A DNA stretch of 61,282 nucleotides, filler included. It is 5 parts of 5 records of this genome, joined end to end, with 100 filler letters (N's around TTAATTAATTAA, not from the genome) between each part and the next. Parts side by side here need not be neighbours in the genome. Positions count along the whole stretch, not along the records: positions 1 to 13,424 come from SRR31156797_22163; 4 more parts are not named here. The stretch is one strand, 5' to 3'. Positions 2,006 through 20,230 of the stretch are shown piece after piece. A program made the translations under genes and the position numbers. The stretch's first letter is position 1, and each line of letters begins with the position of its first letter. The notes under the pieces are model-generated. The model was not told where the DNA came from, did not search any database, and saw only the letters and a program-made list of their open reading frames with translations.

Positions 2006-2027
2006 TAAGTGAACTGATTTTAACTGA

Positions 2028-2729: not shown

Positions 2730-2766
2730 GTAGTGTTCCTCCATATGGTAAAAAGGATGAATTTAA

Positions 2767-2799
2767 ATTGACCATATCAATATTTGACATGATCAAATA
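2767..2799. promoter_or_regulatory. Two tandem putative MarR operators upstream of the crotonase gene
   Basis: ATTGAC-CAT-ATCAAT and TATTTGAC-ATG-ATCAAATA match the palindrome upstream of marR. Confidence 0.7.
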
Positions 2800-2834
2800 A
2801 TCGAATAAAAAAATCCCTGATTTCCGGATACGCA

Positions 2835-3269: not shown

Positions 3270-3298
3270 AACTCTGTCTCCTTTTTCTACTGCATTAA

Positions 3299-3319
3299 TT
3301 ATTTGACCATGTCAAATAA
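3299..3319. promoter_or_regulatory. Putative MarR autoregulatory operator
   Basis: Perfect palindrome TTATTTGAC-CAT-GTCAAATAA 30 bp upstream of marR. Confidence 0.75.
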
Positions 3320-3409
3320 ATTGTCAAGAAATATTTAAGTGGAGCTTCGAATAGATTTATATCAAATGATATAGTCCGGCGATGGACCGCCGCCGGATTG
3401 CCAGACTTG

Positions 3410-4363: not shown

Positions 4364-5225
4364 TGGAGCGAATACGTTCGGTTAATGGCGATATGTCGCC
4401 CATGTCTTCAAATGGCCGGTCGTCGATCAAGCGATCGATCCCTACCCGGTCCAGGCCGGCCAAACGTCGGGTTACTTCGTGAATATCCTCCAGGCTGGTA
4501 ATTATGCTGCCATGTTGCGGTGCAATATAACGGAAGGGAATCCGCACGATTTCTTCCAGGGCGAACCGAAGGGCGCGATTGGAAGTCATGATTGTCTGGT
4601 GGAACCTTAAAATATCTGGTATGGGACAATAGTCGCGCCCTTGGCGGCAGTTTATTAAATCCGTGCACTCCGGACAGTTGTCATTAAGCTTTAAAAACAG
4701 ATCCCAATTAGATCCATAACTTCCATAAAGGTCGCTGGTAAAGAGCACTCCGGTCTTTTCATCAAACGTGACAAAGCTGCCCGGGGAGTGGGCGTATGGA
4801 GTACTGTAAAACTTCAATGACCGGCCAGACTTGAATTTGAAGCCCCCGGGAAATCCATTGGCGGCGTAAAGTTTGGAACTGACGGAATAATGGCGGATGA
4901 ACATGTTATTTTCCGGATTCGAAATAATCATAAGGTCGGCGCGGTCGATTATGTCTTCGAAATTGGATACGCTCCCGCAGAGATCCGGGTCGTAGTGCTG
5001 GTAAATCAGGGCGATAATGGATGACGGGTGGACTCCGGCCTGCAGTATTTTTTTCATTACCACCGGGAAATGAGGCCGGCTGCCTCCGTCTATGACTACG
5101 GCCTCGTCTCCTTCCACCACCATGTATGGGTTGCAGTGCAAACCGGATTCACGGTCGATGAAACCGATCCAATAAACATTATCGGCAATTTCTATTGCTT
5201 TTTCATAATCCAGATTGTCTTGCAT
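4353..5225 (-). CDS. MBL-fold di-iron protein, ODP/FprA N-terminal-like (no flavodoxin domain)
   Basis: HCNPY, QHYDPDLCGS, TPYAHSPG, LFTSDLYG and IAPQHGS motifs. Confidence 0.8.
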   Translation of the reverse strand: MQDNLDYEKAIEIADNVYWIGFIDRESGLHCNPYMVVEGDEAVVIDGGSRPHFPVVMKKILQAGVHPSSIIALIYQHYDPDLCGSVSNFEDIIDRADLMIISNPENNMFIRHYSVSSKLYAANGFPGGFKFKSGRSLKFYSTPYAHSPGSFVTFDEKTGVLFTSDLYGSYGSNWDLFLKLNDNCPECTDLINCRQGRDYCPIPDILRFHQTIMTSNRALRFALEEIVRIPFRYIAPQHGSIITSLEDIHEVTRRLAGLDRVGIDRLIDDRPFEDMGDISPLTERIRSNES

Positions 5226-5517
5226 AATTCGGGGCTTCTAATCCGGTTCTTGTCCTTTATGGGATTGAATTCAATTTTATTAAGAATACACTACTGTTTG
5301 AAGAAATAATAGCTGTCTGCCGATTTCACCGCCATTCAATGCTTCACGACCATAAGAGCTTTTTAAAATAATCTTTCAACTCATACTTGACAGCTAAACT
5401 GAATTAAGACAAACTACAAAGTAGAAGGTGGTAGATTTAAATTTGAATTAAAGCAGCCGCCGCCCCAAAACGATATTCCCTCAGCATATGAAAATGAAAA
5501 AAAAGGAGCGCCGCCCT

Positions 5518-6984
5518 ATGAAAATTCCTCTCAAAGGCTATGACAAATCTATAATCTTTGAAAACATGGACCGCTTTTCCGCGGGCGATCTACCATGGAA
5601 ATCAGGAAAAACATGGGGCCATGTGTTCGTGGCCGGCCGGGAAGCCCAAGCCGTGGGTCAGGAAGCTTTCCTGAAATTCATGACGCAGAATGGATTGGAT
5701 TTTTCAATCTATCCCAGCCTGCTCAGATTTGAAACCGAACTGGTCGCCATGCTCGCCGATCATCTTAACGGAGACGAACAGGTCGTCGGCAATTTCACCA
5801 GTGGAGGAACAGAAAGCATCCTGTTGGCCGTCAAGACCGCCCGGGATTATTTTAGAACCGCCCGGCCGGAAATAACATCTCCGGAAATGGTTATTCCCGA
5901 AACCGCCCACGCCGCTTTTCACAAAGCCGCCCAGTATTTTAACCTTAAGTTAATCCAGGTTCCGGTGGATCCCAAAACCTTCCACGCCGACGTCGACTTG
6001 ATGGCTGATGCCATAACTCCCAACACCATCCTTCTAGTCGCCTCAGCTCCTTCATACGCCCATGGCGTGGTCGATCCAATCGAACAAATCGGCCGTTTGG
6101 CCCTTGATAACGGACTGCTCTTGCATGTGGACGGCTGCGTCGGCGGCCTGATGCTGCCATATTTTCGACGACTGGGGGCCGACTTTCCTGATTTTGACTT
6201 TTCCGTACCAGGCGTTTCTTCAATATCCGTGGATCTGCATAAATACGGTTACACCCCCAAAGGGGCCAGCCTTGTGCTTTACCGCAACAGGCAAATCCGC
6301 AAACACCAGATTTTTACCTGCGCATCCTGGCCCGGATACACAATGGTCAACTCCGCTATTCAAAGCAGTAAAAGCGGCGGTCCCCTGGCTGCGGCCTGGG
6401 CCGTTGTCAATTTCCTGGGCGATGACGGTTTTCTGGAACTGGCGCGCCTTAAATATGAAGCGACAAGGCGATTAAAGGAAGGAATCAATCAAATAGAGGG
6501 CCTTCAGGTCATGGCGGAGCCAGACTTGTGCATGCTTGCTTTCACTTCGGCCAAGGCGGATGTATTCCAATTGTCTCAGCAAATGAAGGAGAAAGGTTGG
6601 CATATTCAACCCCAGTTCCGTTTCGGATCTTCACCAGCCAACATTCATCTCACCGTGCTGGCTTCCAACGCCCACATGGTTGAACCTTTTCTGGCCGAAT
6701 TGGCTGAAGCTGTTCAGGTCGCTAAGGGCATGCAGAAAGGTCCCATGGCCGCCATGATTCTTGAAGGGCTGGCCGGCCTCGACCTCAAAACACTATCAGA
6801 TGAGGAACTAAATAAGTTCATGGCGGCCGGGGAAGGCGGCCTGGACGTTTCACAAATGAGCATGGTGGAAATAAACCAGGTTCTTAACGAACTCCCGCCG
6901 CCTTTGCGGGATGTCCTCCTGACCGAGCACGTCAACGACATGTTTGTTTATCGTGAAAACGCACTGGGAGCTTTTCCCTTCTAA
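5518..6984 (+). CDS. PLP-dependent enzyme, sphingosine-1-phosphate lyase-like (group II decarboxylase fold), copy 1
   Basis: TSGGTESI, AHAAFHKAA, SAPSYAHGVVDPI, HVDGCVGG and DLHKYGYTPKGAS (PLP Lys); AAGGAG RBS. Confidence 0.88.
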   Translation: MKIPLKGYDKSIIFENMDRFSAGDLPWKSGKTWGHVFVAGREAQAVGQEAFLKFMTQNGLDFSIYPSLLRFETELVAMLADHLNGDEQVVGNFTSGGTESILLAVKTARDYFRTARPEITSPEMVIPETAHAAFHKAAQYFNLKLIQVPVDPKTFHADVDLMADAITPNTILLVASAPSYAHGVVDPIEQIGRLALDNGLLLHVDGCVGGLMLPYFRRLGADFPDFDFSVPGVSSISVDLHKYGYTPKGASLVLYRNRQIRKHQIFTCASWPGYTMVNSAIQSSKSGGPLAAAWAVVNFLGDDGFLELARLKYEATRRLKEGINQIEGLQVMAEPDLCMLAFTSAKADVFQLSQQMKEKGWHIQPQFRFGSSPANIHLTVLASNAHMVEPFLAELAEAVQVAKGMQKGPMAAMILEGLAGLDLKTLSDEELNKFMAAGEGGLDVSQMSMVEINQVLNELPPPLRDVLLTEHVNDMFVYRENALGAFPF

Positions 6985-7070
6985 TAAAATCGGTCAAATC
7001 ATATGGCCAGGCGGAAATTGCGTCGGCTCAAGTTTTTTGTGACAACCTTCCATCACTGAAAGGAGTTGTA

Positions 7071-8516
7071 ATGAAACGAATTCCCGAGAAATCCCAATCA
7101 AGAGAAGAACTGTTAAAAGTCCTTGAAGACTTCAAGGCGAATGACGTCGACTGGAAATCCGGACGCTCCTTCGGCTTTGTATATGACCCGGGCAAGGAAG
7201 CCATGGAATTCGGCAAGGAAGCCTTTCTGATGTATATGACTGAAAACGGATTGGATTTCACGGCCTTTCCGAGTCTGCTGCACTTTGAATCCGAACTGGC
7301 TTCAATGTGCGCCGCCCATGTGGGCGGAGATGAGAATGTCGTCGGCAATTTCACAAGCGGCGGCACTGAAAGCATCATGCTGGCCGTAAAATCCGCCCGG
7401 GATTATTACCGGAAATACAAGCCCGAAATCAGGGAACCGGAAATAATCCTGCCCATAACAGGCCACGCAGCCTTCCACAAGGCGGCCCACTATTTATGCC
7501 TTAAAATCACGCCTGTTCCCGTTCGCGACCACGATCTGCGAGCCGATCCGGAGGCAGTGCGCCGGGCTATTAATCCCAATACCATTATGATAGTCGGGTC
7601 GTCCCCTGGCTATGCGCACGGCGTGATCGATCCTATTTCCGAACTGGCCTCAATTGCGTCGGAAAACGATTTGTGGATGCATGTTGACGGCTGCGTCGGC
7701 GGTTTCATGCTGCCTTATTACCGCCGCTTGGGCCGTAATATTCCTGATTTTGATTTTTCGGTTCCAGGTGTGACCTCCTTGTCAATGGACCTGCACAAAT
7801 ACGCTTACACGCCCAAGGGGGCTTCGATGGTGCTTTACCGAAACAAGAAATATCGCAAAAGCCAAATATTCGCCTGCGCAGACTGGACCGGGTACGCCAT
7901 CGTCAACAATGCAATTCAATCAGCCAAATCCGGAGGGCCCATGGCCGCGGCCTGGGCCATGCTTCACTACATGGGCGATGAAGGTTACATGGAAATAGCC
8001 CGGCGTAAAATCGAGGCCACGGACCGGATTGCGGCCGGCATACAAGCTATTCCCGAATTGAAGATTCTGTCCAATCCGGATATGTCCATGCTGGCTTTCA
8101 CTTCCGACGATATAAACATCTTTCTGCTTATTGACGAAGTTAATTCCCGGGGATGGTACATTCAACCGCAATTGATAATGGATAACTCTCCGGAAGCCGC
8201 CCACATTTCGGTCAACTTCGGCAATGTAGGTTTGGAGGAAGAGTTCCTCAAAGACCTGCGGGAATCTGTTGAAAAGGTCAAGGGTCAGGAAGCGTCCGAC
8301 CTGGTGAAAAGCATGTCCGGCGTTCTTGACGGTCTTGAGCCGGACGCCCTGGATGACGATGCAGTAAGCGAGATGATGAGCATGGCCGGGGTAGCCGGCG
8401 ACAGCCTGCCCGGAAGCATGGCCGATATAAACATGATAATGAACATGCTGCCCCGAAAACTACGGGGGCGTCTCCTGGTGGAATACGTCAACGATCTGTT
8501 CATTTACAAGGAGTGA
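7071..8516 (+). CDS. PLP-dependent enzyme, sphingosine-1-phosphate lyase-like, copy 2
   Basis: Same motifs as copy 1 (TSGGTESI, HGVIDPI, HVDGCVGG, DLHKYAYTPKGAS). Confidence 0.88.
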   Translation: MKRIPEKSQSREELLKVLEDFKANDVDWKSGRSFGFVYDPGKEAMEFGKEAFLMYMTENGLDFTAFPSLLHFESELASMCAAHVGGDENVVGNFTSGGTESIMLAVKSARDYYRKYKPEIREPEIILPITGHAAFHKAAHYLCLKITPVPVRDHDLRADPEAVRRAINPNTIMIVGSSPGYAHGVIDPISELASIASENDLWMHVDGCVGGFMLPYYRRLGRNIPDFDFSVPGVTSLSMDLHKYAYTPKGASMVLYRNKKYRKSQIFACADWTGYAIVNNAIQSAKSGGPMAAAWAMLHYMGDEGYMEIARRKIEATDRIAAGIQAIPELKILSNPDMSMLAFTSDDINIFLLIDEVNSRGWYIQPQLIMDNSPEAAHISVNFGNVGLEEEFLKDLRESVEKVKGQEASDLVKSMSGVLDGLEPDALDDDAVSEMMSMAGVAGDSLPGSMADINMIMNMLPRKLRGRLLVEYVNDLFIYKE

Positions 8517-8733
8517 TCCTTATCCGGAGAAATCATCGTTGAAGAAAGTTTACTCCGGATTAAATCGCAAAACGGCTGGAAAAAGGGCGCTGCCCGTCCG
8601 ACTAATCCCTTGCCATATCAAATATATTTGGATAAAGTTCCTGGGCGGCGCCAAACGGAAATAAAAAACTCCATTACATAATCACCTGACGAAACAGCCC
8701 GGTAAAGGGAAATTAAACAACGCCGGTTAAATC

Positions 8734-10098
8734 ATGAAGAAAGATAAACCAAAAGGTCTCAAAATCAGCCAATTGGCTGAGATGGCCGATGTAACAGTTC
8801 CGACCGTCAGCCACTATCTGAAAAAAGGTCTGCTGCCTCAACCCGTAAAAACCGGCCGGACCATGGCCTGGTACGACCCCTCATGCGTTGAAAGGATCAA
8901 ACTGATCAAAAGGCTGCAACACGAGCAGTATCTGCCCCTGGACATTATCAAGCGCATTATCGATTCCGGAGAACTGCTGGAAGAAGAATCTCAAATAGGC
9001 CGCCAGATCGCAAAATCCGAATGGGGCGCCGAAGATGAAAAAAGCATTAAGCAGTCCGAGTTGGCCGAACAAACCGGTTGGCCTATAAGAAAAATCCGTC
9101 TGCTTGAAAGAGAAGGGCTCCTGCATCCGGCCAGGGGCAGCACCGGGAAGAAATACGACCAACTCGATCGGAATATCATAGAAATATGCCGGGACCGGGA
9201 AGATATTGGTCTGCCTTTCGATTTAACCCTGGATGTGTTTAAAAGATACATGGAAACCCTGGAAAACGTTGTAGACCTGGAAACCAGGAGCAGGCTGAAC
9301 CACCTCATCGAGGAGGATGCATCCGAAGAATATTTAAAGTTGATTGAAAAATCGGATGAGACCCTTGACCGGCTCGTCCTGGTTTTGAGGAGAAAAATAG
9401 TCCGCCGGACCAACCTGAGGCTCCTTCAGGATATAGATGAAACACAAGACAGGTTGTCCGGAATGCTGACTCCGCCGTCGGCCGAAGAATATCTGCCGGA
9501 AAGGCCGCCTGAGGATTTGGCGCTTAAATTGTTTTATTACCTTTGCCAGGCGCGTTTCGACTATATCCTGGATTCATTCACGCCCGATCATAACGACCGC
9601 ATACTGACCGCCAGCCTTGTGTTAACCTGTCTCTTTAATGGCGATTGGGAAGGCGCCTACCGGCTGACCCGAAAATTCCTGCCTGATCCGGCGCCTGAAT
9701 CCTGGATAAATGCCGTAGCCGCCCTGGCCCTTTTACTGACCGCCACCCAGAAAACAGGTTTTAATCAGCTTTTAAAACTAAGCCGGCAAGCCATGACATA
9801 TTTGAGAACTTCCGAACAGAAAGCAAACTCGTCGTCTATTGCTGATTGCCTGTTCCGGTATATCTGCGGCCATATTTATTTCGCCCTGCCGGAAATGCAG
9901 AACAAGCGCTTAATCGGCCTGCATATGTTGACCGACCTGGCCGAACTGCTTGACGGAGGCCGCATGAACCTGAAGAAAACTCCCGCCTGGGTCCGGAAAA
10001 CGCTGCAATATGAAATTTTCCCTGCCGTATTAAATAATATCGAGAGCATAAAAACCGCATATCCATATAAAGATGAGGAGCAGGGGCGTGAAGCATAG
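8734..10098 (+). CDS. MerR-family regulator with two HTH units and a long helical C-terminus
   Basis: KISQLAEMADVTVPTVSHYLKKGLLPQP..TMAWY; second unit QSELAEQTGW..LEREGLLHP..Y. Confidence 0.85.
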   Translation: MKKDKPKGLKISQLAEMADVTVPTVSHYLKKGLLPQPVKTGRTMAWYDPSCVERIKLIKRLQHEQYLPLDIIKRIIDSGELLEEESQIGRQIAKSEWGAEDEKSIKQSELAEQTGWPIRKIRLLEREGLLHPARGSTGKKYDQLDRNIIEICRDREDIGLPFDLTLDVFKRYMETLENVVDLETRSRLNHLIEEDASEEYLKLIEKSDETLDRLVLVLRRKIVRRTNLRLLQDIDETQDRLSGMLTPPSAEEYLPERPPEDLALKLFYYLCQARFDYILDSFTPDHNDRILTASLVLTCLFNGDWEGAYRLTRKFLPDPAPESWINAVAALALLLTATQKTGFNQLLKLSRQAMTYLRTSEQKANSSSIADCLFRYICGHIYFALPEMQNKRLIGLHMLTDLAELLDGGRMNLKKTPAWVRKTLQYEIFPAVLNNIESIKTAYPYKDEEQGREA

Positions 10099-10140
10099 TC
10101 CGGCCAATTCCCCGACCTATAATAGTTATAATCTGCCAAC

Positions 10141-10554
10141 TCAATGACCATGGGCGTCTTTCACTGCATTTTTTCTCACATAATCCACGATGTGCTTAAG
10201 GGAAGAACCAGGACCGAAAAACTCGTCCAACCCCATGTCTTTTAATTGCGGAATGTGGTCGTGCGGAACCGTACCCCCGAGAATAACCAGAATATCGTCG
10301 GCTGAAGCCGCTTTGAGTCTGTTCAAAACTTCCGGCGCCAATACCATATGATTCCCGGAAAGCGTGCTGAGCCCCACCACATCCACGTCTTCCTGAATGG
10401 CGGTCTTGACAATAGCCTCGGAACTTTCATTGCCCAGGTAAATAACTTCCATGCCCGCGTCTCTCAAGGCCCTGGCCACGACCACGCTGCCGCGCCAGTG
10501 GGAGTCCATCCCGAGCCTGGCCAACAGAACTCTTATTTTTTTACTTCCAGTCAT
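10141..10554 (-). CDS. Cobalamin-binding small subunit of an acyl-CoA mutase
   Basis: DxHxxG (DSHWRG), LRDAGMEVIYLG, VGLSTLSGNH and LGGTVP motifs. Confidence 0.93.
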   Translation of the reverse strand: MTGSKKIRVLLARLGMDSHWRGSVVVARALRDAGMEVIYLGNESSEAIVKTAIQEDVDVVGLSTLSGNHMVLAPEVLNRLKAASADDILVILGGTVPHDHIPQLKDMGLDEFFGPGSSLKHIVDYVRKNAVKDAHGH

Positions 10555-10569
10555 TACTGCCTCCATAAC

Positions 10570-12336
10570 TCAAGTGAATAAAGGCGGATTCCATTGGCCA
10601 TGTACGGCCTTAAGCGTATCCGTGATCTCTCCGATGGATATCCGGTCGGTGGACGCCTTAACAATGGCTTCCATTAAATTCCCGCCCTTTTCATAGCAAC
10701 GCCTAATGTCATCCAGGGCTTTCATCGCCTTGACCGAATCCCTGTCCCTGCGCAGACGCGTAAGCTTTGCCTTCTGTATATCCAGGGTATTTTCCGGCGT
10801 TTCAAAAATCTCACACTTGAAAGGCTCCTTGTCCATTGTATGGCAATTAATTCCCACCACCGGCATTTCTCCGGATTCCACCTGTCTCTGATACTCATAG
10901 GCAGAATCGGAAATCATCCTGTGCACCCAGCCGTTTTCTACAGCACTGACCAACCCGCCCTGGGCGTCTATTTCTTCCAGGGTTTTCAATATCTGCTCTT
11001 CCAGTCTGTTGGTTAAATACTCCACGAAATAAGACCCGCCCAGCGGATCGATGTTATGGGTCGTCCGGGTTTCCAATTGTAAAATCTGCTGCGTCCTTAA
11101 GGCCGTTAATGCGGAAAGCTCTGTCGGCGTGCAAAGCGCCTCGTCAAAACCGTCCACATGAACCGACTGGGCGCCCCCCAAAACCGCGGCCAGGGCATGA
11201 TAAGCGGATCTGGCCACATTGTTTAAGGGCTGTTGCGCGGTCAAGGCAACGCCCGCGGTTTGAACATGAAAACGGAACATCAAAGATCTAGGGTTTTTAG
11301 GGCTGTAACGCTCTTCCATGATCCTGGCCCACAGCCGCCGGCCTGCCCTGTACTTGCCGATTTCCTCAAAAAAGTCATTATGCGCCGAAAGGAAGAAGCT
11401 CAGCCTTGGTGCGAATTCGTCAACATTGAATCCCCGGTCCAATAGTTCTTCAATACAGGATAAGGCATTGGCCATGACCAGGGCGATTTCCTGCACGGCG
11501 TCGCAACCGGCTTCCCGGTAGTTATACCCGGTAAAGCTGACCGGATTCCAACGTCTGGCCCGGCGCGTACAAAACTCAATAGCATCGCAGCAAATTTTGA
11601 AAGACGCCCCCGGCGGCGTAACTCCCGGCGCCGTTGTCACCGCGGTTTCCATTAAAAAATCGTTCTGGCTCGTACCGCTCAACACGTTCAGGTCGATTCC
11701 CCGATTTATCGCATTGGCAAAATACATTGATTGGACGGAAATATTACATATGGGATTGCAGGTCACCAGGGAAGCGCTGGTCTTTTCTATGGGAATTCCG
11801 TCAAACAACGCCGCCACGTCTTCGAGATGATCAATGGCCGCTCCGCCCCGGCCGACATCGCCGTACACATCCGGGTGGTCTGAATCGTAACCGCGCAGGG
11901 TAGGGTAGTCGAACACGCCGTTTATGCCCGTTGCCCCGGCCTCAAGTAATAATCTATAGCGCTTGTTGGTCTCCTCGGGAGGACCGTAACCCGCCAACTG
12001 GCGCTGAGTCCATGTGCGGCCTCGGTACATACTTGGATAGACGCCGCGGATATAGGGCTCCTCACCCGGAAATCCCAGGTCTTTTAGATAATCGAAATTC
12101 ACCATATCCGCCGGAGTGCACACTGGAGGTATGCTGATTCCGGACAAGGTCTTAAATTCTTTCAACCTCTCTTTTGTCTTGGCATATGTAGTATTTTTCC
12201 ATTGTTCCGCGGCCAGGCCGATCCGAACCGCGTATTTTTCAGGTAAAAGGGCTCCGCCGTCGCTCTTCGTCCCAGGGTTTTGTTCGGGCGCCGGTTCATC
12301 AATCCGGTTTTGTTGGTCCAATTTTTCCAGGCTCAT
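10570..12336 (-). CDS. B12-dependent acyl-CoA mutase, large subunit (MCM superfamily, non-MCM specificity residues)
   Basis: PYIRGVYPSMYRGRTWT, FDYPTLRGYDSD, FRFHVQTAG and DPLGGSYFVE motifs; AGGAGG RBS. Confidence 0.92.
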   Translation of the reverse strand: MSLEKLDQQNRIDEPAPEQNPGTKSDGGALLPEKYAVRIGLAAEQWKNTTYAKTKERLKEFKTLSGISIPPVCTPADMVNFDYLKDLGFPGEEPYIRGVYPSMYRGRTWTQRQLAGYGPPEETNKRYRLLLEAGATGINGVFDYPTLRGYDSDHPDVYGDVGRGGAAIDHLEDVAALFDGIPIEKTSASLVTCNPICNISVQSMYFANAINRGIDLNVLSGTSQNDFLMETAVTTAPGVTPPGASFKICCDAIEFCTRRARRWNPVSFTGYNYREAGCDAVQEIALVMANALSCIEELLDRGFNVDEFAPRLSFFLSAHNDFFEEIGKYRAGRRLWARIMEERYSPKNPRSLMFRFHVQTAGVALTAQQPLNNVARSAYHALAAVLGGAQSVHVDGFDEALCTPTELSALTALRTQQILQLETRTTHNIDPLGGSYFVEYLTNRLEEQILKTLEEIDAQGGLVSAVENGWVHRMISDSAYEYQRQVESGEMPVVGINCHTMDKEPFKCEIFETPENTLDIQKAKLTRLRRDRDSVKAMKALDDIRRCYEKGGNLMEAIVKASTDRISIGEITDTLKAVHGQWNPPLFT

Positions 12337-12382
12337 TCTTAACCTCCTTATGGTCATAAGGCGCGACGGCCAAATCGCTTTC

Positions 12383-12562
12383 CAATTAATCGGTTAATTG
12401 AAATTGAAGTAAAAATATATTTAATTAATCGATTGATTAGTTAAGAGATAAAACATACAAATTCTGTCATATTAACTCAATTTTTAAATTATTTAATTAC
12501 TGTCTATATTATGTTGGAAACATACTCAAAAGATTAAGAATCATTAATTAATCGTATGATTA
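12383..12562. promoter_or_regulatory. Three putative TetR operators upstream of the mutase operon
   Basis: CAATTAATCGGTTAATTG (12383), TAATTAATCGATTGATTA (12422) and TAATTAATCGTATGATTA (12545). Confidence 0.7.
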
Positions 12563-12584
12563 AATAATGGTGAAAAAAAATTTA

Positions 12585-13160
12585 TCAGGTCGCCAGGCCT
12601 TTCATAAACAGTTTCTCTATTTCATCCACGATTTCCTCACGACTCAGTTTGCCTGTTTCCCTGGTCCATTGAATGTTCCAGGAAATTATGCCTTCCAGGG
12701 AATTGAATATAACAGCGGAATTTATATCGTTCAATATCCCGGCCCCGACCAGCTTGACTATCTTCTCCCTGAACAGGTGATAGATTCTGCGGTTGATGTT
12801 CTTTATTTCATCCCGGTGCTCCGGCTTTAGCCAGTAAAAATCTATGGCCCAGATTTTTGTTTCCTTCCTGTAAGTTATAATGTGAAGCCGCAAATGGGTT
12901 CTAAGCATGGCTTTCAAACAATCCAGCGGATCTGTATGTCTTTTTTCCACCTCCAAAAGAGCCTCCAGGATATCAACCGCCCCGGATTTGATAACTTCAA
13001 ACAGCAAACCTTCCTTGTCTTTGAAATAATAATAAATATTCGCGCTGTTCAAACCGGTTTCCTGGGCGATCTGCCTGATGCTGGTGTCGGCGTAACCCCT
13101 TTCATAGAACAAATCCGTGGAATATTTTATTAATCTGTTGCGTGTATTCGACCTGGCCAC
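12585..13160 (-). CDS. TetR/AcrR-family regulator (GTG start)
   Basis: LFYERGYADTSIRQIAQETGLNSANIYYYFKDKEGLL HTH. Confidence 0.94.
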   Translation of the reverse strand: MARSNTRNRLIKYSTDLFYERGYADTSIRQIAQETGLNSANIYYYFKDKEGLLFEVIKSGAVDILEALLEVEKRHTDPLDCLKAMLRTHLRLHIITYRKETKIWAIDFYWLKPEHRDEIKNINRRIYHLFREKIVKLVGAGILNDINSAVIFNSLEGIISWNIQWTRETGKLSREEIVDEIEKLFMKGLAT

Positions 13161-13203
13161 GTATCCCCGCTGTTATTTCAACTGTAAGAATTGACGGCTC
13201 CAA

Positions 13204-13241
13204 ATTTTAATCAATTGATTAATTGATAAACCGTATGCTTA
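13204..13241. promoter_or_regulatory. Putative TetR autoregulatory sites
   Basis: TTAATCAATTGATTAA palindrome, plus TGATAAACCGTATGCTTA (14/18 identical to the 12545 site). Confidence 0.55.
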
Positions 13242-13424
13242 TATATGTCAAATAGATAATGGCATGACCGGGGATCTGTTATGAATAATGTTTTCAACTT
13301 GTTGAAATTAAATGATATTAATATTTCAAGCAGCGGCGTTTGTTTCATGAAAGCTGGGCGACCGTTGTATAACTTACTGTTTAAAATCCTGAATATCTGC
13401 GCCTGCACCTTCCGAATAAGTGTA

Positions 13425-13524
13425 NNNNNNNNNNNNNNNNNNNNNNNNNNNNNNNNNNNNNNNNNNNNTTAATTAATTAANNNNNNNNNNNNNNNNNNNN
13501 NNNNNNNNNNNNNNNNNNNNNNNN
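13425..13524. other. Artificial contig linker
   Basis: N44-TTAATTAATTAA-N44, with stops in all six frames. Confidence 0.98.
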
Positions 13525-13582
13525 GCCTCCTCAGCGCATCCCGGCGCTCCAGTAAGTCTTTTACCTGGTCTTGTAATATCAT
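13525..13582 (-). CDS. prfB: Peptide chain release factor 2, N-terminal 19 codons (truncated by the linker just before the +1 frameshift site)
   Basis: Reads MILQDQVKDLLERRDALRR and ends CTG AGG AGG C; matches Bacteroidota RF2 starts and the internal SD of the frameshift cassette. Confidence 0.75.
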
Positions 13583-13794
13583 CAATTTATCCTTATTTAA
13601 TCAGTAAACAAAGGTAGTAAGTTTTTTTAGGTATAAAGGTGTACCGAAGAGGTCTATATAATTTATAATTGGGTTTGTTAATTGCTAATATGATTCTTGC
13701 TTTTTGTGTTATTTCGCTTTCAAAATATTTCCCTCCTTCTGAATTGTACACTTTATAACATTCCATTGTTTTCATGATAATAATAAATGCAATA

Positions 13795-14922
13795 TCAAAT
13801 GGTTCTATTATTTATTCCAAAGAGTGGCCTTAATACACCAATTCTTTTTATGAAATATTCATAAAGAAGCCATGAAATACCAAAGGTCCCGATAACCATA
13901 ATGACCATTTTTATGGAATAATGAATGGAATGATCCTTTAATATATATCCGAGAAAAAGAGTAATGGTAAAATGCAAAATATAAAATGGATAAACAGCTG
14001 TATTTCTGTATGATAAAATATTGCTTTTTCTGTTTAAATATGTTGAACTATATCCAAAAATGGCGAGTATCCAGCTCCAAACATTTAATGGTTTAAGTAC
14101 TTGAACCAATACCGGGCTTTCATTTTTTGAAAGCATAAATAGAACATATATTGAAGCGAATATTCCAACCAACAAGGATAAACGTCTTATTTTTATGACA
14201 GCATTCCAGAGTGAATCTCCCAGGTTTGCCAGGAAAAATCCAATAAACAGACATGCGAAATAATAACTAAAAGCATACCAATCGTTTATTAAATTCATGG
14301 TTAATGGGAACTTCGATTCCAGTGTAATTTCAATTACAATTAGTGGAAAAACAAACACGTATAAATAAGTGGGTGATTTTTCAATTAACGATTTAAAAAA
14401 GGAAAAACAATTCTTTCCCTTATCTCGAAGAAGAACGAAAACTGGCAATGCAATAACCGACATAACCAGTAAATAAACTAAAAACCAGAGGTGCCCCCAG
14501 CTAAAATTTCCTTCGGGGTATGTATCTTGAAAAATTGAAGGGTAAAATTCAAAAAAGGAATTAAATTCTACACCTTGTACAAGTCGTTCTAAATAGACCT
14601 GAGGTGGTACGATTAAGAACATGCCTGCTAGTAATGGGATGAATAAACGAATAAAACGGTTTTTCAGGTATTTTAAACCTGTTTTTGAAGACAGAGAAAA
14701 ACGTGTGCCAATTCCGGAAACCAGGAAAAGAATGGGCAGCCTCCATTGCCGTACAAAAAGCATTGGCCATATTAACCAACTTACCTGAATATTGTTTTTT
14801 AATGGTAAATCCCATGGGACAAGGTTTTCCCAGGAAACAAAAAATAAACCTACATGCCAGAATATTAATATATCAAAAACAATTACCCTAATCCAATCGA
14901 TGTCGTATCTTCTCTTGTTCAT
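13795..14922 (-). CDS. Acyltransferase family 3 (OpgC/MdoC-like) membrane protein
   Basis: RRYDIDWIR, QWRLPILFLVSG, HLWFL and YPFYILH motifs; multiple TM segments. Confidence 0.88.
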   Translation of the reverse strand: MNKRRYDIDWIRVIVFDILIFWHVGLFFVSWENLVPWDLPLKNNIQVSWLIWPMLFVRQWRLPILFLVSGIGTRFSLSSKTGLKYLKNRFIRLFIPLLAGMFLIVPPQVYLERLVQGVEFNSFFEFYPSIFQDTYPEGNFSWGHLWFLVYLLVMSVIALPVFVLLRDKGKNCFSFFKSLIEKSPTYLYVFVFPLIVIEITLESKFPLTMNLINDWYAFSYYFACLFIGFFLANLGDSLWNAVIKIRRLSLLVGIFASIYVLFMLSKNESPVLVQVLKPLNVWSWILAIFGYSSTYLNRKSNILSYRNTAVYPFYILHFTITLFLGYILKDHSIHYSIKMVIMVIGTFGISWLLYEYFIKRIGVLRPLFGINNRTI

Positions 14923-14971
14923 ATTTTTTTTCTGCAATAATAGGAATAGGAAAAGGGAGTTTTGAAAATCA

Positions 14972-15045
14972 GTGATCAACGGGTACAAAAAGTGCCAAAA
15001 GGGAATTTAATTTCGTGAATAGGAAGTTAATGTGACAAACAGGAA
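14972..15045 (-). promoter_or_regulatory. Four direct repeats with 20-bp period, putative LytTR binding array
   Basis: GTGATCAACGGGTA, GTGCCAAAAGGGAA, TTCGTGAATAGGAA and GTGACAAACAGGAA at 14972/14992/15012/15032. Confidence 0.65.
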
Positions 15046-15051
15046 AGGATT

Positions 15052-15930
15052 TTAGATTTTGGTTAAAAGTTTTTCTCTGGGGAAATTTCTTGAAACCGGA
15101 ATATCAAAATCAAGCCCATCGAGACGAACAGTCACCGAACGGGCATTTCCCTGAAAAGACAAAACCTTGTCGAGATTAATGATAAAAGATTTATGACACC
15201 TGACTATATTGTAGGTGTTATTTGTTACTTCCAGAATTCCTGCCAGGGTATGCCTGATTATCTCTTTTTTAAGAGCAGATTTTTCCTGCCAAAATACCGA
15301 TACATAATTACCACCCTCTGCTTTCACGCATATAATATCGGCGGAACTAATAGTTAATAAAGTATTTTTACTCGATTTAAGTTCGATTAGCAATTCACTT
15401 TTAACCTCATTTGTGCCCTTTATTTTTTCACTGATTTTTCCTGCTTTAATCCGGTTTTTTTCAAAAAGCCTTTTTTCTATAAAATATAAGGCAAAAACAA
15501 CGGGTATAATACCTATTGAAAAAGTCATGCTAATCCAGGAAAAAAAACCGGTTCTGTTCAGGTCTCTGAGTCCCTCAATATACGATTCGTTAACAAGATA
15601 TTCTCCATAAAAAAAATTAGAAAGTGAAATGGTAAACAAAATCCAAAGAATAAACAGGAAATTTTTACCGGTCGTCCAATTGGTGCTCTTTTGTAATGAA
15701 TACAACTTGTGAAAAATATACAGATTGAGCGCTGTAACAACAAAACTAATCAAAGCAAAACCAAACAAAAAAAGGAAGATACCATCGTACGATTCAATAC
15801 CGAATGGTTTTATTAATAGAAGAATACCAAGAACAACAACGCCTGAACCCAACGAAATAAGAAGTATATCTCTTATCGATTCAATCATTGGAAATGGTTT
15901 TTTAAACCATGCAATAAATTGATTTCTCAT
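15052..15930 (-). CDS. Membrane-anchored LytTR-domain regulator
   Basis: About four N-terminal TM helices; AEGGNYV, RCHKSFIINL and IPVSR LytTR motifs. Confidence 0.9.
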   Translation of the reverse strand: MRNQFIAWFKKPFPMIESIRDILLISLGSGVVVLGILLLIKPFGIESYDGIFLFLFGFALISFVVTALNLYIFHKLYSLQKSTNWTTGKNFLFILWILFTISLSNFFYGEYLVNESYIEGLRDLNRTGFFSWISMTFSIGIIPVVFALYFIEKRLFEKNRIKAGKISEKIKGTNEVKSELLIELKSSKNTLLTISSADIICVKAEGGNYVSVFWQEKSALKKEIIRHTLAGILEVTNNTYNIVRCHKSFIINLDKVLSFQGNARSVTVRLDGLDFDIPVSRNFPREKLLTKI

Positions 15931-16030
15931 GGATACTAACCGTTTGTAATTTTTTTAAAGATGTTGAATATAATAGAAATACGGTGTTTTTAAAAGGGCA
16001 TCAATTAATTATTTGTATGGAGTTGTTTAT

Positions 16031-17044
16031 TTATTTAAATGTATCAGTCGTTTCATATTCATACGGTAATGCATCTCCGATTCGTTTTGTCGACATTTCT
16101 CCTTCCCATAAAATGCCCAATGAATTAAAACCCGATTTGTCGAAATATATTCTTTGGATTAGAGGGATCATTGTACTTGTACTTAAATTGTAAATTATAT
16201 TTACTGTACCTGGGTACGATATAAATTTTCTGTATTGTTCTTGCGAATTTTGCAGATTACCAACCGACTGAATTACAATATTGTTATAGTTCAGGTTTTG
16301 CTCTTCAGTATTTTTCATAATAAAACCTTCAGTCAATAAATCGTCTTTCCACAGGCTTCTTAGGAAATGCATTCTTGAGCCCAAATAAGCCTCTTTTCTT
16401 TTTTCCTCATACAGCTTTTTGTCAGCATCGGTGGTTATTAAATCTTCATTGAAAATAATATTACCGTTGTAAATAAAGGCTTTACTTTCTTTGTAATATT
16501 CAAATTTATCGAGGTAGTATGTAATACTGTATCCCAGTGCTTTATTTTTAATTATTATTGGTTTTGATGCATAAGCTTTTAAGGTATCGCGGTCGTTGCC
16601 ATAGTTAAAATAAATATCCTCTTCGTTTTCAATTTCACAACTAAATGCATTTGCAGTTGTTCCAAGAAATTCTTTTTTAAATACTTTCATGTTTGCTCTT
16701 TTTTTTCTGACCAGCGATTTGGCTGAAACTACAATTTCTTCCATTTCAATTAATTTGGGTTTCAGGTAAACCAGTAAAGGCTCGTCGGTGGCAAAATCGG
16801 AAAGTGTACGTGAATTGTACCCCATGCAACTTATCGATAGCGGCATTGATGCATTTTTAGAAATATCTAAAGTGAAATTCCCATTAATATCTGATGTTGT
16901 TCCTACAAAAGTTCCATTAAAATAAACGGCTGCAAAAGCTACTTTTTCTTCTGTCTCTTTGTTTAAAATTGTTCCATTAACTATTTGGCTATATGAAGTT
17001 ATTTGAAAACATAAAGTAAGAATTATCAGAATTATTTTTTTCAT
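16031..17044 (-). CDS. Secreted CarboxypepD_reg-like domain protein
   Basis: Signal peptide followed by GTILNKET..VYFNGTFVGTTSDINGNF..SCMGY; typical of Bacteroidota. Confidence 0.8.
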   Translation of the reverse strand: MKKIILIILTLCFQITSYSQIVNGTILNKETEEKVAFAAVYFNGTFVGTTSDINGNFTLDISKNASMPLSISCMGYNSRTLSDFATDEPLLVYLKPKLIEMEEIVVSAKSLVRKKRANMKVFKKEFLGTTANAFSCEIENEEDIYFNYGNDRDTLKAYASKPIIIKNKALGYSITYYLDKFEYYKESKAFIYNGNIIFNEDLITTDADKKLYEEKRKEAYLGSRMHFLRSLWKDDLLTEGFIMKNTEEQNLNYNNIVIQSVGNLQNSQEQYRKFISYPGTVNIIYNLSTSTMIPLIQRIYFDKSGFNSLGILWEGEMSTKRIGDALPYEYETTDTFK

Positions 17045-17304
17045 AAAATTGTTGTTAAGTCAGGATGAATATAAAATTCGATAACTGCAGTTGTGGGGAA
17101 TAAATGGTTTTTATTATCAGGTTCAATTTGGTTTTTATTTGGTTCAATATATTCCTGTTTTTCAGGCGTTTTTTTTAGACTAAAGAAGTTAAGATAAGTT
17201 TACCTGGTGAGTTATAATTTCAATATGAAATAAATTTTATAGATATGCAAGTTGATTGAAAATTAACCTGAAATAATAGTTTTGTGAAGGAAATTATAAA
17301 CCTA

Positions 17305-17775
17305 TTATTTCAATACTTCGTTTAAATAACGGTGTATTAATTGGGGCTCAAATCCGCGACTTTGTGTAAAACGAATTACCTGACCCATTTTTTCAAACTT
17401 GTTTTTTTTGTTAACTTTTTTTGCTTTTTCTTTCATGGTTTTCAGCAAAACATCTTTGTACTTTTTTTCATCAATTTCATCGAGGGCAGATTCAATAATC
17501 TCATTGTTTAATCCTTTTGCCCGCAGGTAATGTTTAATTTTAATTTTTCCCCATTTATTTATTTTGAATTTATCGGCTACATAAAATTTGCTGTATCGGT
17601 TGTCGTCGATATATTTTTCTGAGGTAAGGTATTCCAGTATTTCTTCAGCTTCATCATTGTCAAATCCGGCGGCTATTATTTTTTTTCTGATATCGGGTGA
17701 ACATTGTTCTGAGCGGCTGCATAAAACGGCCATTCGCGAGATTATTTCTTTCTTTTTGCTTTCTTCGGTTGACAT
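17305..17775 (-). CDS. recX: Regulatory protein RecX
   Basis: CSRSEQC, YIDDNRY, NKWGKIKIKHYLRAKG and SRGFE motifs. Confidence 0.9.
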   Translation of the reverse strand: MSTEESKKKEIISRMAVLCSRSEQCSPDIRKKIIAAGFDNDEAEEILEYLTSEKYIDDNRYSKFYVADKFKINKWGKIKIKHYLRAKGLNNEIIESALDEIDEKKYKDVLLKTMKEKAKKVNKKNKFEKMGQVIRFTQSRGFEPQLIHRYLNEVLK

Positions 17776-17879
17776 GATAATGGGTTGGTTTTGAATATTC
17801 CACATAAATATAATGAAAAATCCTTCAACCTTTTAAACGGAATGAAATGAAAAACAGAAACCCGGAAATAGTCTGGTTT

Positions 17880-18608
17880 TTACAATTCATCATGAAACGA
17901 TTTTTCCTCTTTTACCCCGGTAAAAAATTCAGTTAGATCGGCCAGTGTAGATGCTGTTTTTTGTACATCGCGCACTACTTTTCCTTTTTCGAGAATAACA
18001 ATGCGTGAACAAACATCGGCAACATGATCGAGGTCGTGGCTCGAAATCATAAATGTTTTTCCTTTATTTGAAGCAAATTCCTTGATAATATTTCGGAGTT
18101 TAAATTGTGAAGTTGGATCGAGGTTGGCAAAAGGTTCGTCTAAAACCACCAGTTCCGGATTTCCCATTAATGCGCCAACTACACCTACTTTTTTTTGGTT
18201 CCCTTTTGAAAGGTCGCGGATAAATTTCTTTTTCCCGATAATTTCGTCGTTAAAAAACTCGGTAAAATTATCCAGGAATCCGGAGATATCATTGGTATTC
18301 ATTTCGCGCAGTTCGCCAATAAAGTTAAAGTATTCATCGGGAGTAAGGTACCCAATTGTGAAGCTTTCGTCGATGTATGCGCTGGTTAGCGTTTTCCATT
18401 CTTCCGATTTTGCAACCGGAATTTCATCGATAGAAACACTTCCGTTTGAAGCTCGTATTAAATCGAGCACCAGCGAAAAGAAAGTGGTTTTGCCGGCTCC
18501 GTTGTTTCCCACTAACCCGAAAACTTCGCCTTTTTTAATTGTTAATTCCGGAAGATCAAGAACCACTGTTCCTTTATATGATTTTTGTAAATTAATTGCT
18601 TGTATCAT
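17880..18608 (-). CDS. ABC transporter ATP-binding protein
   Basis: GNNGAGKT, LSKGN, VLDEP and SSHD motifs. Confidence 0.95.
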   Translation of the reverse strand: MIQAINLQKSYKGTVVLDLPELTIKKGEVFGLVGNNGAGKTTFFSLVLDLIRASNGSVSIDEIPVAKSEEWKTLTSAYIDESFTIGYLTPDEYFNFIGELREMNTNDISGFLDNFTEFFNDEIIGKKKFIRDLSKGNQKKVGVVGALMGNPELVVLDEPFANLDPTSQFKLRNIIKEFASNKGKTFMISSHDLDHVADVCSRIVILEKGKVVRDVQKTASTLADLTEFFTGVKEEKSFHDEL

Positions 18609-18683
18609 TGAAGTATTTATTATTGTTGATTGATTATTTAATCTTTTCTTCTGCCTTCTGTCTTCCGACTTCTAACTTCAAAC

Positions 18684-20159: not shown

Positions 20160-20230
20160 ATTAATTAAAAGTGAGTTATTCGTTTTTTGGTATTTAGATG
20201 TATTTAGTTTGTATGTGTATTTTCAATTCA

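What the first reader, a model, noticed from the sequence alone, without database searches (positions are those of the whole stretch)
10141..12336. B12-dependent acyl-CoA mutase with non-MCM specificity residues: candidate new carbon-skeleton rearrangement
Seen: the large subunit reads TQRQLAGYG where methylmalonyl-CoA mutase has RQYAGF (Tyr89). It reads QNDFLMETAVT where MCM has QNDILKEFMVR (carboxylate-binding Arg207), and GYNYREAG where MCM has GYHMQEAG (His244). The small subunit has DSHWRG instead of DGHDRG. Known: the Tyr89 position is Phe in isobutyryl-CoA mutase, Ile in 2-hydroxyisobutyryl-CoA mutase and Leu in pivalyl-CoA mutase. Inference: the enzyme rearranges a bulky, non-carboxylated branched acyl-CoA, either pivalyl-like or new. 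It has its own TetR and sits in a lipid-catabolic neighbourhood.
Basis: partly seen in the sequence, partly recalled or inferred. Interest (0 to 1): 0.8.

Follow-up and report, generated by a model that had tools for sequence, protein, structure and literature searches.

The report
Uncharacterised B12 acyl-CoA mutase pair
These two genes encode an intact vitamin-B12 enzyme that rearranges CoA-bound acids, from an untested branch whose active site rules out methylmalonyl-CoA, so the database label is wrong and the substrate is unknown.

Summary
Window 10570-12336(-) and 10141-10566(-) encode the large and small subunits of an AdoCbl acyl-CoA mutase. Leu121, Thr241/242 and Asn279 stand where methylmalonyl-CoA mutase has Tyr89, Arg207 and His244. 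The B12 motif DSHWRG still fits DxHxxG. GYNYRE and QNDFL are kept in 121 of 121 relatives.

The enzyme is not MCM, ICM, Aquincola-type HcmA or the Xanthobacter Xaut_5043 enzyme (PCM by recall). In a careful tree it belongs to a 17-row family of Desulfobacterota, Firmicutes and Streptomyces proteins. That family is sister to a clade whose loci L085/L086 have the gene order published for the acetone-pathway 2-hydroxyisobutyryl-CoA mutase of Desulfococcus biacutus. Two new tyrosines in the pocket motifs argue against a "bulky" substrate.

The TetR gene is truly adjacent, and four operator-like sites flank it. The "lipid-catabolic neighbourhood" is an artefact. The window is five contigs joined by N44-TTAATTAATTAA-N44 spacers, and the mutase contig ends at 13424.

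The substrate is unknown. My best guess is a short, uncharged, probably hydroxylated or branched acyl-CoA.

The scan found this clade before on other DNA (e1-3358012). Sixteen notes hold all my search words; the eight shown describe uncharacterised mutase clades. I rate it a new variant of a known kind, of moderate interest.

The parts
10570..12336 (-). Acyl-CoA mutase large (substrate/TIM-barrel) subunit, 588 aa from Met8 (the ORF is open to 12357, 595 aa = P0001)
   Evidence: PF01642 matched 1-512/512, E 7.6e-174. TIGR00641 scored 591 bits against a cutoff of 304. The MCM equivalog NF006944 scored 512.9, below its cutoff of 876. Best solved relative is HcmA 4r3u, E 8e-138.
10141..10566 (-). 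Small B12-binding subunit, 141 aa, with DSHWRG (DxHxxG), STL (SxL) and LGGT (GG) motifs
   Evidence: PF02310 E 3e-23 and TIGR00640 130 bits against a cutoff of 57. A small subunit follows the large one in 17 of 18 loci and in 8 of 8 further loci.
12343..12349 (-). Shine-Dalgarno AAGGAGG, 6 nt before the ATG at 12336-12334
   Evidence: Read from the sequence.
12585..13160 (-). TetR-family regulator (TetR_N + TetR_C_24), same strand, upstream of the mutase genes
   Evidence: Pfam hits. Full-length weak match to the Bacillus FadR model NF053878. The adjacency is kept in the second assembly, X2.
12386..12561 (.). Three operator-like sites TTAATCNNWTRATT (12386-12399, 12425-12438, 12548-12561) in the AT-rich tetR-mutase intergenic region
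   Evidence: Inverted repeats. Pattern search: all matches in the 61 kb lie here and at 13207; 0.13 expected by chance. The pattern was derived from these sites, so the statistic is post hoc.
13207..13222 (.). Palindromic copy of the same motif upstream of tetR
13425..13524 (.). Artificial contig joint (N44-TTAATTAATTAA-N44); end of the mutase contig
   Evidence: The same spacer occurs at 23324-23423, 28771-28870 and 44801-44900.

Best explanation
Window 10141-12336(-) encodes an intact two-subunit, adenosylcobalamin-dependent acyl-CoA mutase. It is probably repressed by the adjacent TetR, which is of a type whose members include acyl-CoA-sensing FadR.

Mechanism, inferred from the family: homolysis of the Co-C bond, H-abstraction from the substrate, then a 1,2-shift of the -CO-SCoA group.

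It belongs to an uncharacterised family with this signature: Leu121, Val148, Tyr151, no Arg at 241/242, Asn279, Tyr280 and Asp402. The family is distinct from MCM, ICM/IcmF, Aquincola-type HcmA and the Xanthobacter Xaut_5043 enzyme. It is sister to the clade that holds the acetone-pathway-type loci.

It cannot hold a succinyl or methylmalonyl carboxylate the way MCM does. I take the substrate to be a short, uncharged acyl-CoA that is converted to a beta-oxidisable isomer.

My single best guess is a hydroxylated or branched C4-C6 acyl-CoA, with Asn279 and Asp402 taking over the polar contact that His244 (MCM) or Asp117 (HcmA) provides.

Shown: fold, subunits, motifs, conservation, phylogenetic place, and linkage to tetR. 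Inferred: activity, repression by TetR, substrate class.
For: - Full-length family matches.
- B12 motifs and the equivalents of MCM Tyr243, Gln330 and Glu370 (Y278, Q366, E406) are kept and invariant in 30 clade sequences.
- The signature is conserved in 121 of 121 sequences, and in 18 of 18 locus-encoded large subunits down to 49% identity.
- Careful tree of 48 rows: query clade 100/99; 17-row family 99/96; sister to P0159 plus the L086-like clade at 98/95; the HcmA and Xaut_5043 references and the ICM- and MCM-like rows lie across a 100/99 branch.
- L085/L086 carry large-small-MeaB-SDR, with a TPP enzyme upstream in L086. This is the order published for D. biacutus 04574-04571 and D. cetonica 105217-105214 (PMC4103992 and PMC7888143, passages read).
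- Host genomes already hold other types: MCM-type paralogues in 4 of 5, and ICM-type in 4 of 5 plus an IcmF-like gene in the fifth. The clade is therefore not redundant with them.
- One genome (G170) has both a clade member and a relative of the acetone-type protein.
- Some neighbours in other clade loci are acyl-CoA enzymes: ligases, CoA-transferases, acyl-CoA dehydrogenases, crotonases, a thiolase.
- TetR adjacency holds in two assemblies from two studies, with operator-like sites.
Against: - No biochemical datum exists for any member that I could find.
- Apart from the small subunit, no neighbour is conserved across the 23 clade loci. The commonest are TetR in 5, an M24/creatinase-like hydrolase in 4, and a ligase in 4. 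Context therefore does not fix a pathway.
- No MeaB-type chaperone lies next to clade members, unlike ICM, HCM, Xaut_5043 and L085/L086.
- Loss of His244 could mean low or altered activity.
- The link of L085/L086 to the characterised D. biacutus enzyme rests on synteny and published gene order, not on its sequence. L211/L212, of the same signature type, lack MeaB and SDR within 1.5 kb.
- The roles I assign to Asn279, Asp402, Tyr151 and Tyr280 are read from alignments, not from a structure.
- The operator motif is post hoc.
Confidence: 0.65

Rival explanations
1. It is an RCM/HCM-type 2-hydroxyisobutyryl-CoA / 3-hydroxybutyryl-CoA mutase, possibly also handling the C5 homologues. That would be a known reaction in a not yet labelled branch.
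For: - Sister position to the clade holding the acetone-cluster-like loci.
- 46-52% identity between that clade's named member (P0376) and the query family, against 39-44% to other types.
- The published acetone-induced Desulfotomaculum enzymes are about 47% identical to the D. biacutus one (PMC8084838, passages read).
- Val148 stands where, by my recall of Weichler 2015, K. tusciae RcmA has Val for HcmA Asp117.
- Rohwerder 2020 (PMC7176365) calls the D. biacutus enzyme RcmAB-like.
Against: - None of the partners is found: no TPP enzyme, SDR dehydrogenase, MeaB or hcl-type cluster next to the 18 clade or sister loci tested, other than L085/L086.
- Several pocket-motif positions differ from the L086 type: G147/V148/Y151/Y280 against I/L/L/L.
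- G170 holds both a clade member and a relative of that type.
- I could not obtain the RcmA sequence, so this is not tested.
Confidence: 0.25
2. It is a pivalyl-CoA/isovaleryl-CoA mutase.
For: - Leu at the Tyr89 position and Asp at the MCM Asn366 position are shared with Xaut_5043, which also has an upstream TetR.
- Clade locus L082 has a carboxyltransferase, a crotonase and an HMG-CoA-lyase-like gene upstream. These resemble isovalerate/leucine catabolism genes.
Against: - Only 36.8% identity to Xaut_5043, and it lies on the other side of a 100/99 branch.
- Xaut_5043 keeps His244 and has quite different motifs around positions 145-153 and 229-244.
- The L082 proteins score below the curated cutoffs, and that context occurs in 1 of 23 loci.
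- That Xaut_5043 is the characterised PCM is recalled, not read.
Confidence: 0.08
3. It is a butyryl/isobutyryl-CoA or valeryl/2-methylbutyryl-CoA isomerase of syntrophic communities.
For: - Hosts are Syntrophales and Desulfobacterota MAGs.
- Butyrate/isobutyrate isomerisation is observed in digesters (PMC7082340, passages read).
- Butyryl-CoA-type acyl-CoA dehydrogenase, CoA-transferase and ligase genes lie near some members.
Against: - 4 of 5 host genomes already carry an ICM-type (Phe/Gln/His) paralogue, and the fifth an IcmF-like gene.
- Polar Asn279, Asp402 and two Tyr are unexpected for a plain alkyl chain.
Confidence: 0.08
4. It is a genuine methylmalonyl-CoA mutase, as databases name it, or an inactive relic.
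For: Sources name relatives 'methylmalonyl-CoA mutase (family protein)'. One clade member (L209) has a frameshift.
Against: - Tyr89, Arg207 and His244 are all replaced.
- The equivalog model score is 513 against a cutoff of 876.
- The signature is strictly conserved in 121 of 121 sequences, which argues for a selected function.
- The cofactor motifs are intact.
Confidence: 0.03

Closest known systems
Acetone-pathway 2-hydroxyisobutyryl-CoA mutase of Desulfococcus biacutus / Desulfosarcina cetonica (Frey et al. 2018, not read; called 'RcmAB-like' in PMC7176365)
   Same: - Split large and small subunits.
- The clade with the same gene order as published (L085/L086) is the sister group of the query family.
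- Shared signature: RQLAG, QNDF[LI]MET, GYN.RE (Asn for His244) and H[VI]D (Asp for Asn366).
- 46-50% identity.
   Different: - The query clade has G147/V148/Y151/Y280 where that type has I/L/L/L.
- It has no MeaB, SDR or TPP-enzyme partners.
- I did not have the D. biacutus protein sequence itself. The link is by synteny and published locus order.
2-Hydroxyisobutyryl-CoA mutase HcmAB (Aquincola tertiaricarbonis, PDB 4R3U; Methylibium PM1 and Xanthobacter Xaut_5021 orthologues)
   Same: Best solved-structure match, E 8e-138. Split subunits. No Arg at the Arg207 position.
   Different: - 42-43% identity.
- Ile90 becomes Leu, Asp117 becomes Val, His becomes Asn, Asn366 becomes Asp.
- The hcm operon (GntR, hcmB, ligase, MeaB-type, hcmA) is absent here.
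- It lies on the other side of a 100/99 branch.
Xanthobacter autotrophicus Py2 Xaut_5043/5044 (pivalyl-CoA mutase by my recall of Kitanishi et al. 2015; paper not held)
   Same: Leu at the Tyr89 position, WTQRQL, Asp at the Asn366 position, and an upstream TetR gene.
   Different: - 36.8% identity.
- It keeps His244.
- The motifs at 145-153 and 229-244 are unrelated.
- It has MeaB, a thioesterase and a ligase downstream.
- It sits in a separate clade.
Methylmalonyl-CoA mutase (P. shermanii 1REQ, human 2XIJ)
   Same: Same fold and cofactor machinery. Y243, Q330 and E370 equivalents are kept.
   Different: Tyr89, Arg207 and His244 are all replaced. The equivalog model scores below its cutoff. 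Host genomes carry separate MCM-type paralogues.

Membership tests
AdoCbl-dependent acyl-CoA mutase superfamily | Full-length mutase TIM-barrel domain (PF01642 / TIGR00641) | tested here: met
   PF01642 matched 1-512/512, E 7.6e-174. TIGR00641 scored 591 against a cutoff of 304.
AdoCbl-dependent acyl-CoA mutase superfamily | B12-binding Rossmann subunit with DxHxxG...SxL...GG (base-off/His-on) | tested here: met
   DSHWRG, STL and LGGT are present in P0002. PF02310 and TIGR00640 score above their cutoffs. That these motifs define base-off/His-on binding is recalled.
Methylmalonyl-CoA mutase (EC 5.4.99.2) | Tyr89, Arg207 and His244 (carboxylate clamp and catalytic His; roles recalled from Mancia and Evans, and Thoma et al.) | tested here: not met
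   Leu121, Thr241/242 and Asn279 in alignments to 1req, 5req and 2xij. NF006944 scored 512.9 against a cutoff of 876.
Isobutyryl-CoA mutase / IcmF | Phe at Tyr89, Gln at Arg207, His244 kept; G-protein fused or adjacent | tested here: not met
   Leu, Thr and Asn here. ICM-like rows read RMFAG, AQK and GYHI. NF045497 scored 279 against a cutoff of 1500. No MeaB-type gene was found on the contig.
HcmAB-type 2-hydroxyisobutyryl-CoA mutase | Ile90 and Asp117 (their roles are recalled), His kept; operon with 2-HIBA-CoA ligase and MeaH | tested here: not met
   Leu121, Val148 and Asn279. The operon seen in Methylibium and Xanthobacter is absent here.
Pivalyl-CoA mutase (Xaut_5043 type) | Membership of the Xaut_5043 clade; Leu at Tyr89 with His244 kept | tested here: not met
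   Leu is shared, but His is replaced by Asn. Identity is 36.8%. The clades are separate (99 SH-aLRT; 100/99).
RcmAB / acetone-pathway HCM type | Clustering with K. tusciae RcmA or D. biacutus 04574; Val at HcmA Asp117 (recalled) | not testable with these tools
Val148 is present. The sister relation to the L085/L086-type clade is shown.
RcmAB / acetone-pathway HCM type | Gene cluster with MeaB-type chaperone, 3-hydroxybutyryl-CoA dehydrogenase (SDR) and TPP enzyme | tested here: not met
   tblastn with the L086 MeaB, SDR and TPP proteins against the window and 18 loci hit only L085.

The most novel reading that the evidence does not exclude
The family catalyses a carbon-skeleton rearrangement not yet described for B12 mutases. 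Asn279 and Asp402 would replace the catalytic His244. Two new tyrosines would grip a small polar substrate. In several genomes that substrate would be delivered by a co-encoded M24/creatinase-like metallohydrolase, a Liv-type binding protein and a CoA ligase or transferase. This would be a new entry route for an amide-derived or hydroxylated branched acid into anaerobic beta-oxidation.
Probability: 0.35. Interest if true: 0.7.

Novelty: new variant of a known kind. Interest (0 to 1): 0.45.

Why it matters
Annotation pipelines name this family 'methylmalonyl-CoA mutase'. Metabolic reconstructions of Syntrophales and Desulfobacterota MAGs that use it for the propionate/succinate pathway are therefore probably wrong.

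The family is conserved and spans anaerobes and cultured Streptomyces, Kitasatospora, Brevibacillus and Metallumcola. An assay is therefore feasible.

A mutase working without the canonical His244 would inform the mechanism of thioester migration. B12 mutases with new specificities are also sought for making branched or tertiary building blocks.

The practical lesson for this scan is that the window is a concatenation of contigs. Neighbourhood arguments across the N spacers are invalid.

Tried and rejected
- Whole genome: none is held.
- Papers on HCM, PCM and RCM specificity: JBC 2012 and 2015, and AEM 2015, are not held. Residue roles in HcmA, RcmA and PCM are therefore recalled. Supplements of PMC11599936 gave only the UniProt id of RcmA, no sequence.
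- Paper searches that found nothing on this clade: 'pivalyl-CoA'; Syntrophus/isobutyrate/mutase; RcmA (mostly noise); Tyr89/Arg207/His244. I found no description of the clade in these searches, and the library lacks most subscription journals.
- Chimeric-contig idea: the GC drop at 13.2 kb turned out to be an artificial contig joint, not HGT or misassembly.
- Metagenome scan: only 3 clade loci and 3 sister loci among 80.
- Plasmid searches: no clade member on any plasmid. H9 is an ordinary MCM with epimerase.
- ESM Atlas: only generic 'methylmalonyl-CoA mutase' clusters.
- Rfam on 1-13424: no match, so no cobalamin riboswitch was detected.
- RNA evidence: no RNA holder listed.
Only an anaerobic ribonucleotide reductase was seen, in L001.
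- NCBIfam on neighbours: generic names only, mostly below cutoffs.
- Not run: structure prediction and complex prediction. The tools return no coordinates, so pocket geometry could not be read.
Full report
WHAT IS THERE

The minus strand of window 10141-12357 holds two adjacent ORFs.

The upstream one, 10570-12357 (595 aa, P0001), matches the methylmalonyl-CoA-mutase TIM-barrel domain over its whole length: PF01642 1-512/512, E 7.6e-174, and TIGR00641 at 591 bits against a cutoff of 304. The downstream one, 10141-10566 (141 aa, P0002), is a B12-binding subunit: PF02310, and TIGR00640 at 130 bits against a cutoff of 57.

An AAGGAGG box lies 6 nt before the second ATG, at 12336. That start gives 588 aa, the length of the 97%-identical relative P0004.

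A TetR-family gene (12585-13160, TetR_N + TetR_C_24) lies upstream on the same strand.

All four motifs quoted are present.

HMMER alignments to solved structures put:
- Leu121 on MCM Tyr89. The 5req chain, which reads Phe there, aligns at the same column.
- Asn279 on His244.
- Thr241 on Arg207. MAFFT shifts this to Thr242 because of a one-residue insertion.

Counting along the HcmA alignment (offset 11 from the chain numbering), Val148 stands at HcmA Asp117.

Further changes are Tyr151, Tyr280 and Arg281, and Asp402 at MCM Asn366. The equivalents of MCM Tyr243, Gln330 and Glu370 are kept.

The small subunit's DSHWRG still fits DxHxxG, and SxL and GG follow. D[AS]HWRG is the clade norm.

Among P0001 and its 120 best database relatives:
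- 121 of 121 keep GYNYRE[AS]G.
- 121 of 121 keep QNDFL[ML]E.
- 120 of 121 keep RQL[AS]G.

This is a selected signature, not decay.

THE WINDOW IS A CONCATENATION

A GC drop from about 0.5 to about 0.3 after 13.2 kb, with Bacteroidota-type genes, first suggested a chimera.

The sequence shows N44-TTAATTAATTAA-N44 spacers at 13425-13524, 23324-23423, 28771-28870 and 44801-44900. The window is therefore five contigs of a bin joined artificially, and the mutase contig is 1-13424.

The acyl-CoA genes at 45-61 kb (ETF, acyl-CoA dehydrogenase, crotonase, ligase, CoA-transferase) are not neighbours.

On its own contig the mutase pair is flanked by:
- tetR;
- a 454-aa MerR-type gene;
- two MfnA-like PLP decarboxylases;
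- an ODP/metallo-beta-lactamase gene;
- a SpoIIE phosphatase gene;
- a MarR gene;
- a crotonase-family gene and an acyl-CoA ligase about 8 kb away.

Within 1-13424 the assembly is sound. A 42,829-bp contig of run X1 (probably the source) is identical over the whole stretch. A 31,257-bp contig of run X2, from another study, is collinear over 1-13228 with 480 other letters. It has a 1047-bp insertion between 10104 and 10141, and it keeps the order tetR-large-small.

REGULATION

The two AT-rich intergenic regions around tetR hold inverted repeats. The derived pattern TTAATCNNWTRATT matches four sites: 12386, 12425, 12548, and the palindrome at 13207. It matches nowhere else in 61 kb, with 0.13 matches expected. 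The pattern is post hoc.

The TetR matches the Bacillus FadR model over its full length but below the cutoff. It is 22-25% identical to the TetRs next to Xaut_5044 and next to clade locus L006.

Repression released by an acyl-CoA is my inference. No riboswitch was found.

WHICH MUTASE

- The best solved relative is HcmA 4r3u (E 8e-138). MCMs follow at 1e-105 to 1e-120, and IcmF at 4e-64.
- The MCM and IcmF equivalog models score far below their cutoffs.
- Named references came from plasmids: Methylibium PM1 HcmA; Xanthobacter Xaut_5021, which sits in the same hcm operon; and Xaut_5043/5044 with TetR, MeaB and a ligase. The last is the pivalyl-CoA mutase by my recall.
- P0001 is 41.7%, 42.8% and 36.8% identical to them.
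- Xaut_5043 shares Leu at Tyr89 and Asp at Asn366 but keeps His244.

A whole-library search found 2434 representatives at E<=1e-30, with very diverse signatures.

A quick tree of 67 rows and a careful tree of 48 rows agree. In the careful tree:
- The Desulfobacterota query clade has 100/99 support.
- It joins Firmicutes rows with the same LVYNYD signature (Metallumcola ferriviriculae, a Peptococcaceae MAG) and an LV[YF]NYS group (Brevibacillus, Streptomyces, Kitasatospora, Phytohabitans). Together they form a 17-row family at 99/96.
- Its sister, at 98/95, is P0159 plus a six-row clade containing a Desulfocicer niacini protein and the L086-like proteins.
- HcmA, Xaut_5043, and the ICM-like and MCM-like rows lie across a 100/99 branch.

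LINK TO A KNOWN ACTIVITY

Loci L085 and L086 are 49-50% identical to P0001. They share the signature RQLAG, QNDFIMET, GYNLRE and HID. They carry large-small-MeaB-SDR, and L086 has a TPP enzyme and a radical-SAM gene upstream.

That is the order published for the acetone-induced clusters of D. biacutus (SDR 04571, small 04573, large 04574, TPP 04566; PMC4103992) and D. cetonica (105214-105217; PMC7888143). I read passages of both papers.

[quoted passage not shown] PMC7176365 calls it 'RcmAB-like'.

By my recall of the Weichler 2015 abstract, K. tusciae RcmA has Val where HcmA has Asp117, as the query does. I could obtain neither reference sequence.

AGAINST SIMPLE EQUIVALENCE

- The window and the other 16 loci searched lack MeaB, SDR and TPP partners.
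- Pocket-motif positions 147, 148, 151 and 280 differ from the L086 type.
- Genome G170 has both a clade member and a relative of the acetone-type protein, a further subtype reading RQIAG / NIVLD.
- L211/L212, of the L086 signature type, lack MeaB and SDR within 1.5 kb. So even that clade is not uniform.

DISTRIBUTION AND CONTEXT

- Named sources are all MAGs: Syntrophales, Desulfatiglandaceae, Desulfobacterales and Thermodesulfobacteriota.
- 9 of 401 sampled genomes of the phylum hold a clade member.
- Five host genomes hold 3-12 mutase paralogues each. MCM-type paralogues occur in 4 of 5. ICM-type occur in 4 of 5, with an IcmF-like gene in the fifth. The clade is therefore not their substitute.
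- Two genomes have two clade copies.

Over 23 clade loci, only the small subunit is constant: 17 of 18 loci (the exception ends at the contig edge) and 8 of 8.

Recurrent but minor neighbours:

| Neighbour | Loci |
|---|---|
| TetR | 5 |
| Orthologous M24/creatinase-like hydrolase (46-61% identical to each other) | 4 loci, in 3 genomes |
| AMP-ligase | 4 |
| CoA-transferase | 3 |
| Acyl-CoA dehydrogenase | 3 |
| Liv-type binding protein / ABC transporter | 3 |

The M24-like hydrolase is directly adjacent to the mutase genes in L001 and L205. One locus (L082) has MaoC, carboxyltransferase, crotonase and HMG-CoA-lyase-like genes upstream.

This fits uptake, CoA activation and isomerisation of a small acid. 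It does not name the acid.

VERDICT

This is an intact, regulated B12 acyl-CoA mutase of an uncharacterised family. It is not MCM, and it is not nested in the HcmA or Xaut_5043 clades. It is closest to the acetone-pathway hydroxyacyl-CoA mutase type.

The substrate is probably a short, uncharged, hydroxylated or branched acyl-CoA. A known RCM-type reaction remains a serious rival (about 0.25).

The scan met the same clade before on another genome (e1-3358012). Sixteen notes hold all my search words; the eight shown describe uncharacterised B12 acyl-CoA mutase clades of several kinds.

Noticed in passing
window 13425-13524, 23324-23423, 28771-28870, 44801-44900: N44-TTAATTAATTAA-N44 spacers. 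The window is five contigs of a bin joined artificially, so gene-neighbourhood arguments across these points are invalid.
   Followed up: yes
window 13525-23323: A low-GC (about 0.32) contig with Bacteroidota-type genes: DUF5687, a CHU_C/T9SS tail, a SusC-like N-terminus, a GldA-like ABC ATPase, LytTR, recX and asd. It sits among about-0.45-0.5-GC contigs with sigma-54 and chemotaxis genes. This looks like bin contamination.
   Followed up: partly
window 5488-6984 and 7071-8516 (+): Two tandem paralogous PLP-dependent group-II decarboxylases. Their best model is MfnA tyrosine decarboxylase, below its cutoff. They lie on the mutase contig.
   Followed up: no
window 8734-10098 (+): A 454-aa MerR-family protein with two MerR_1 stretches, convergent with the mutase operon. 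In the related strain (run X2) a 1047-bp insertion sits between its end (10104) and the small-subunit gene (10141).
   Followed up: no
L001:4047-5222, L205:11501-12694, L210:14838-16184, L203:1414-2778: An orthologous M24/creatinase-N hydrolase (46-61% identical; motifs like GYHADQTRTY and GHGIGLELNEPP conserved) is encoded next to clade mutases in 4 loci of 3 genomes. Its role beside an acyl-CoA mutase is unexplained.
   Followed up: partly
L203:3581-11072: Three different non-canonical mutase large+small pairs lie in tandem, reading RREVVG/MYDLRE, RQLGSLG/GYHLAS, and the query type. Next to them are an M24 hydrolase, a ligase and a Liv-type permease.
   Followed up: partly
L209:9193-10855: The clade large-subunit gene is matched in two overlapping pieces (9193-9462 and 9458-10855), which suggests a frameshift or a sequencing error.
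   Followed up: no
window 44901-61282 (separate contig): This contig holds ETF, a metallo-beta-lactamase, an acyl-CoA dehydrogenase, a crotonase, an OYE + Pyr_redox_2 enoate/dienoyl-CoA-reductase-like 686-aa protein, a sigma-54 activator, DinB/MDMPI, an AMP-ligase, two MFS transporters and a family-III CoA-transferase. It is a candidate anaerobic organic-acid degradation cluster.
   Followed up: no
L213-L217 (genomes G200, G106, G170, G070, G230): A further subtype of the superclade reads RQIAGFG / NIVLD[LM]P / GYNLREA / HVDS. It has Ile at the Tyr89 position and Val at the HcmA Asp117 position. It is 50-54% identical to P0001 and is uncharacterised.
   Followed up: partly
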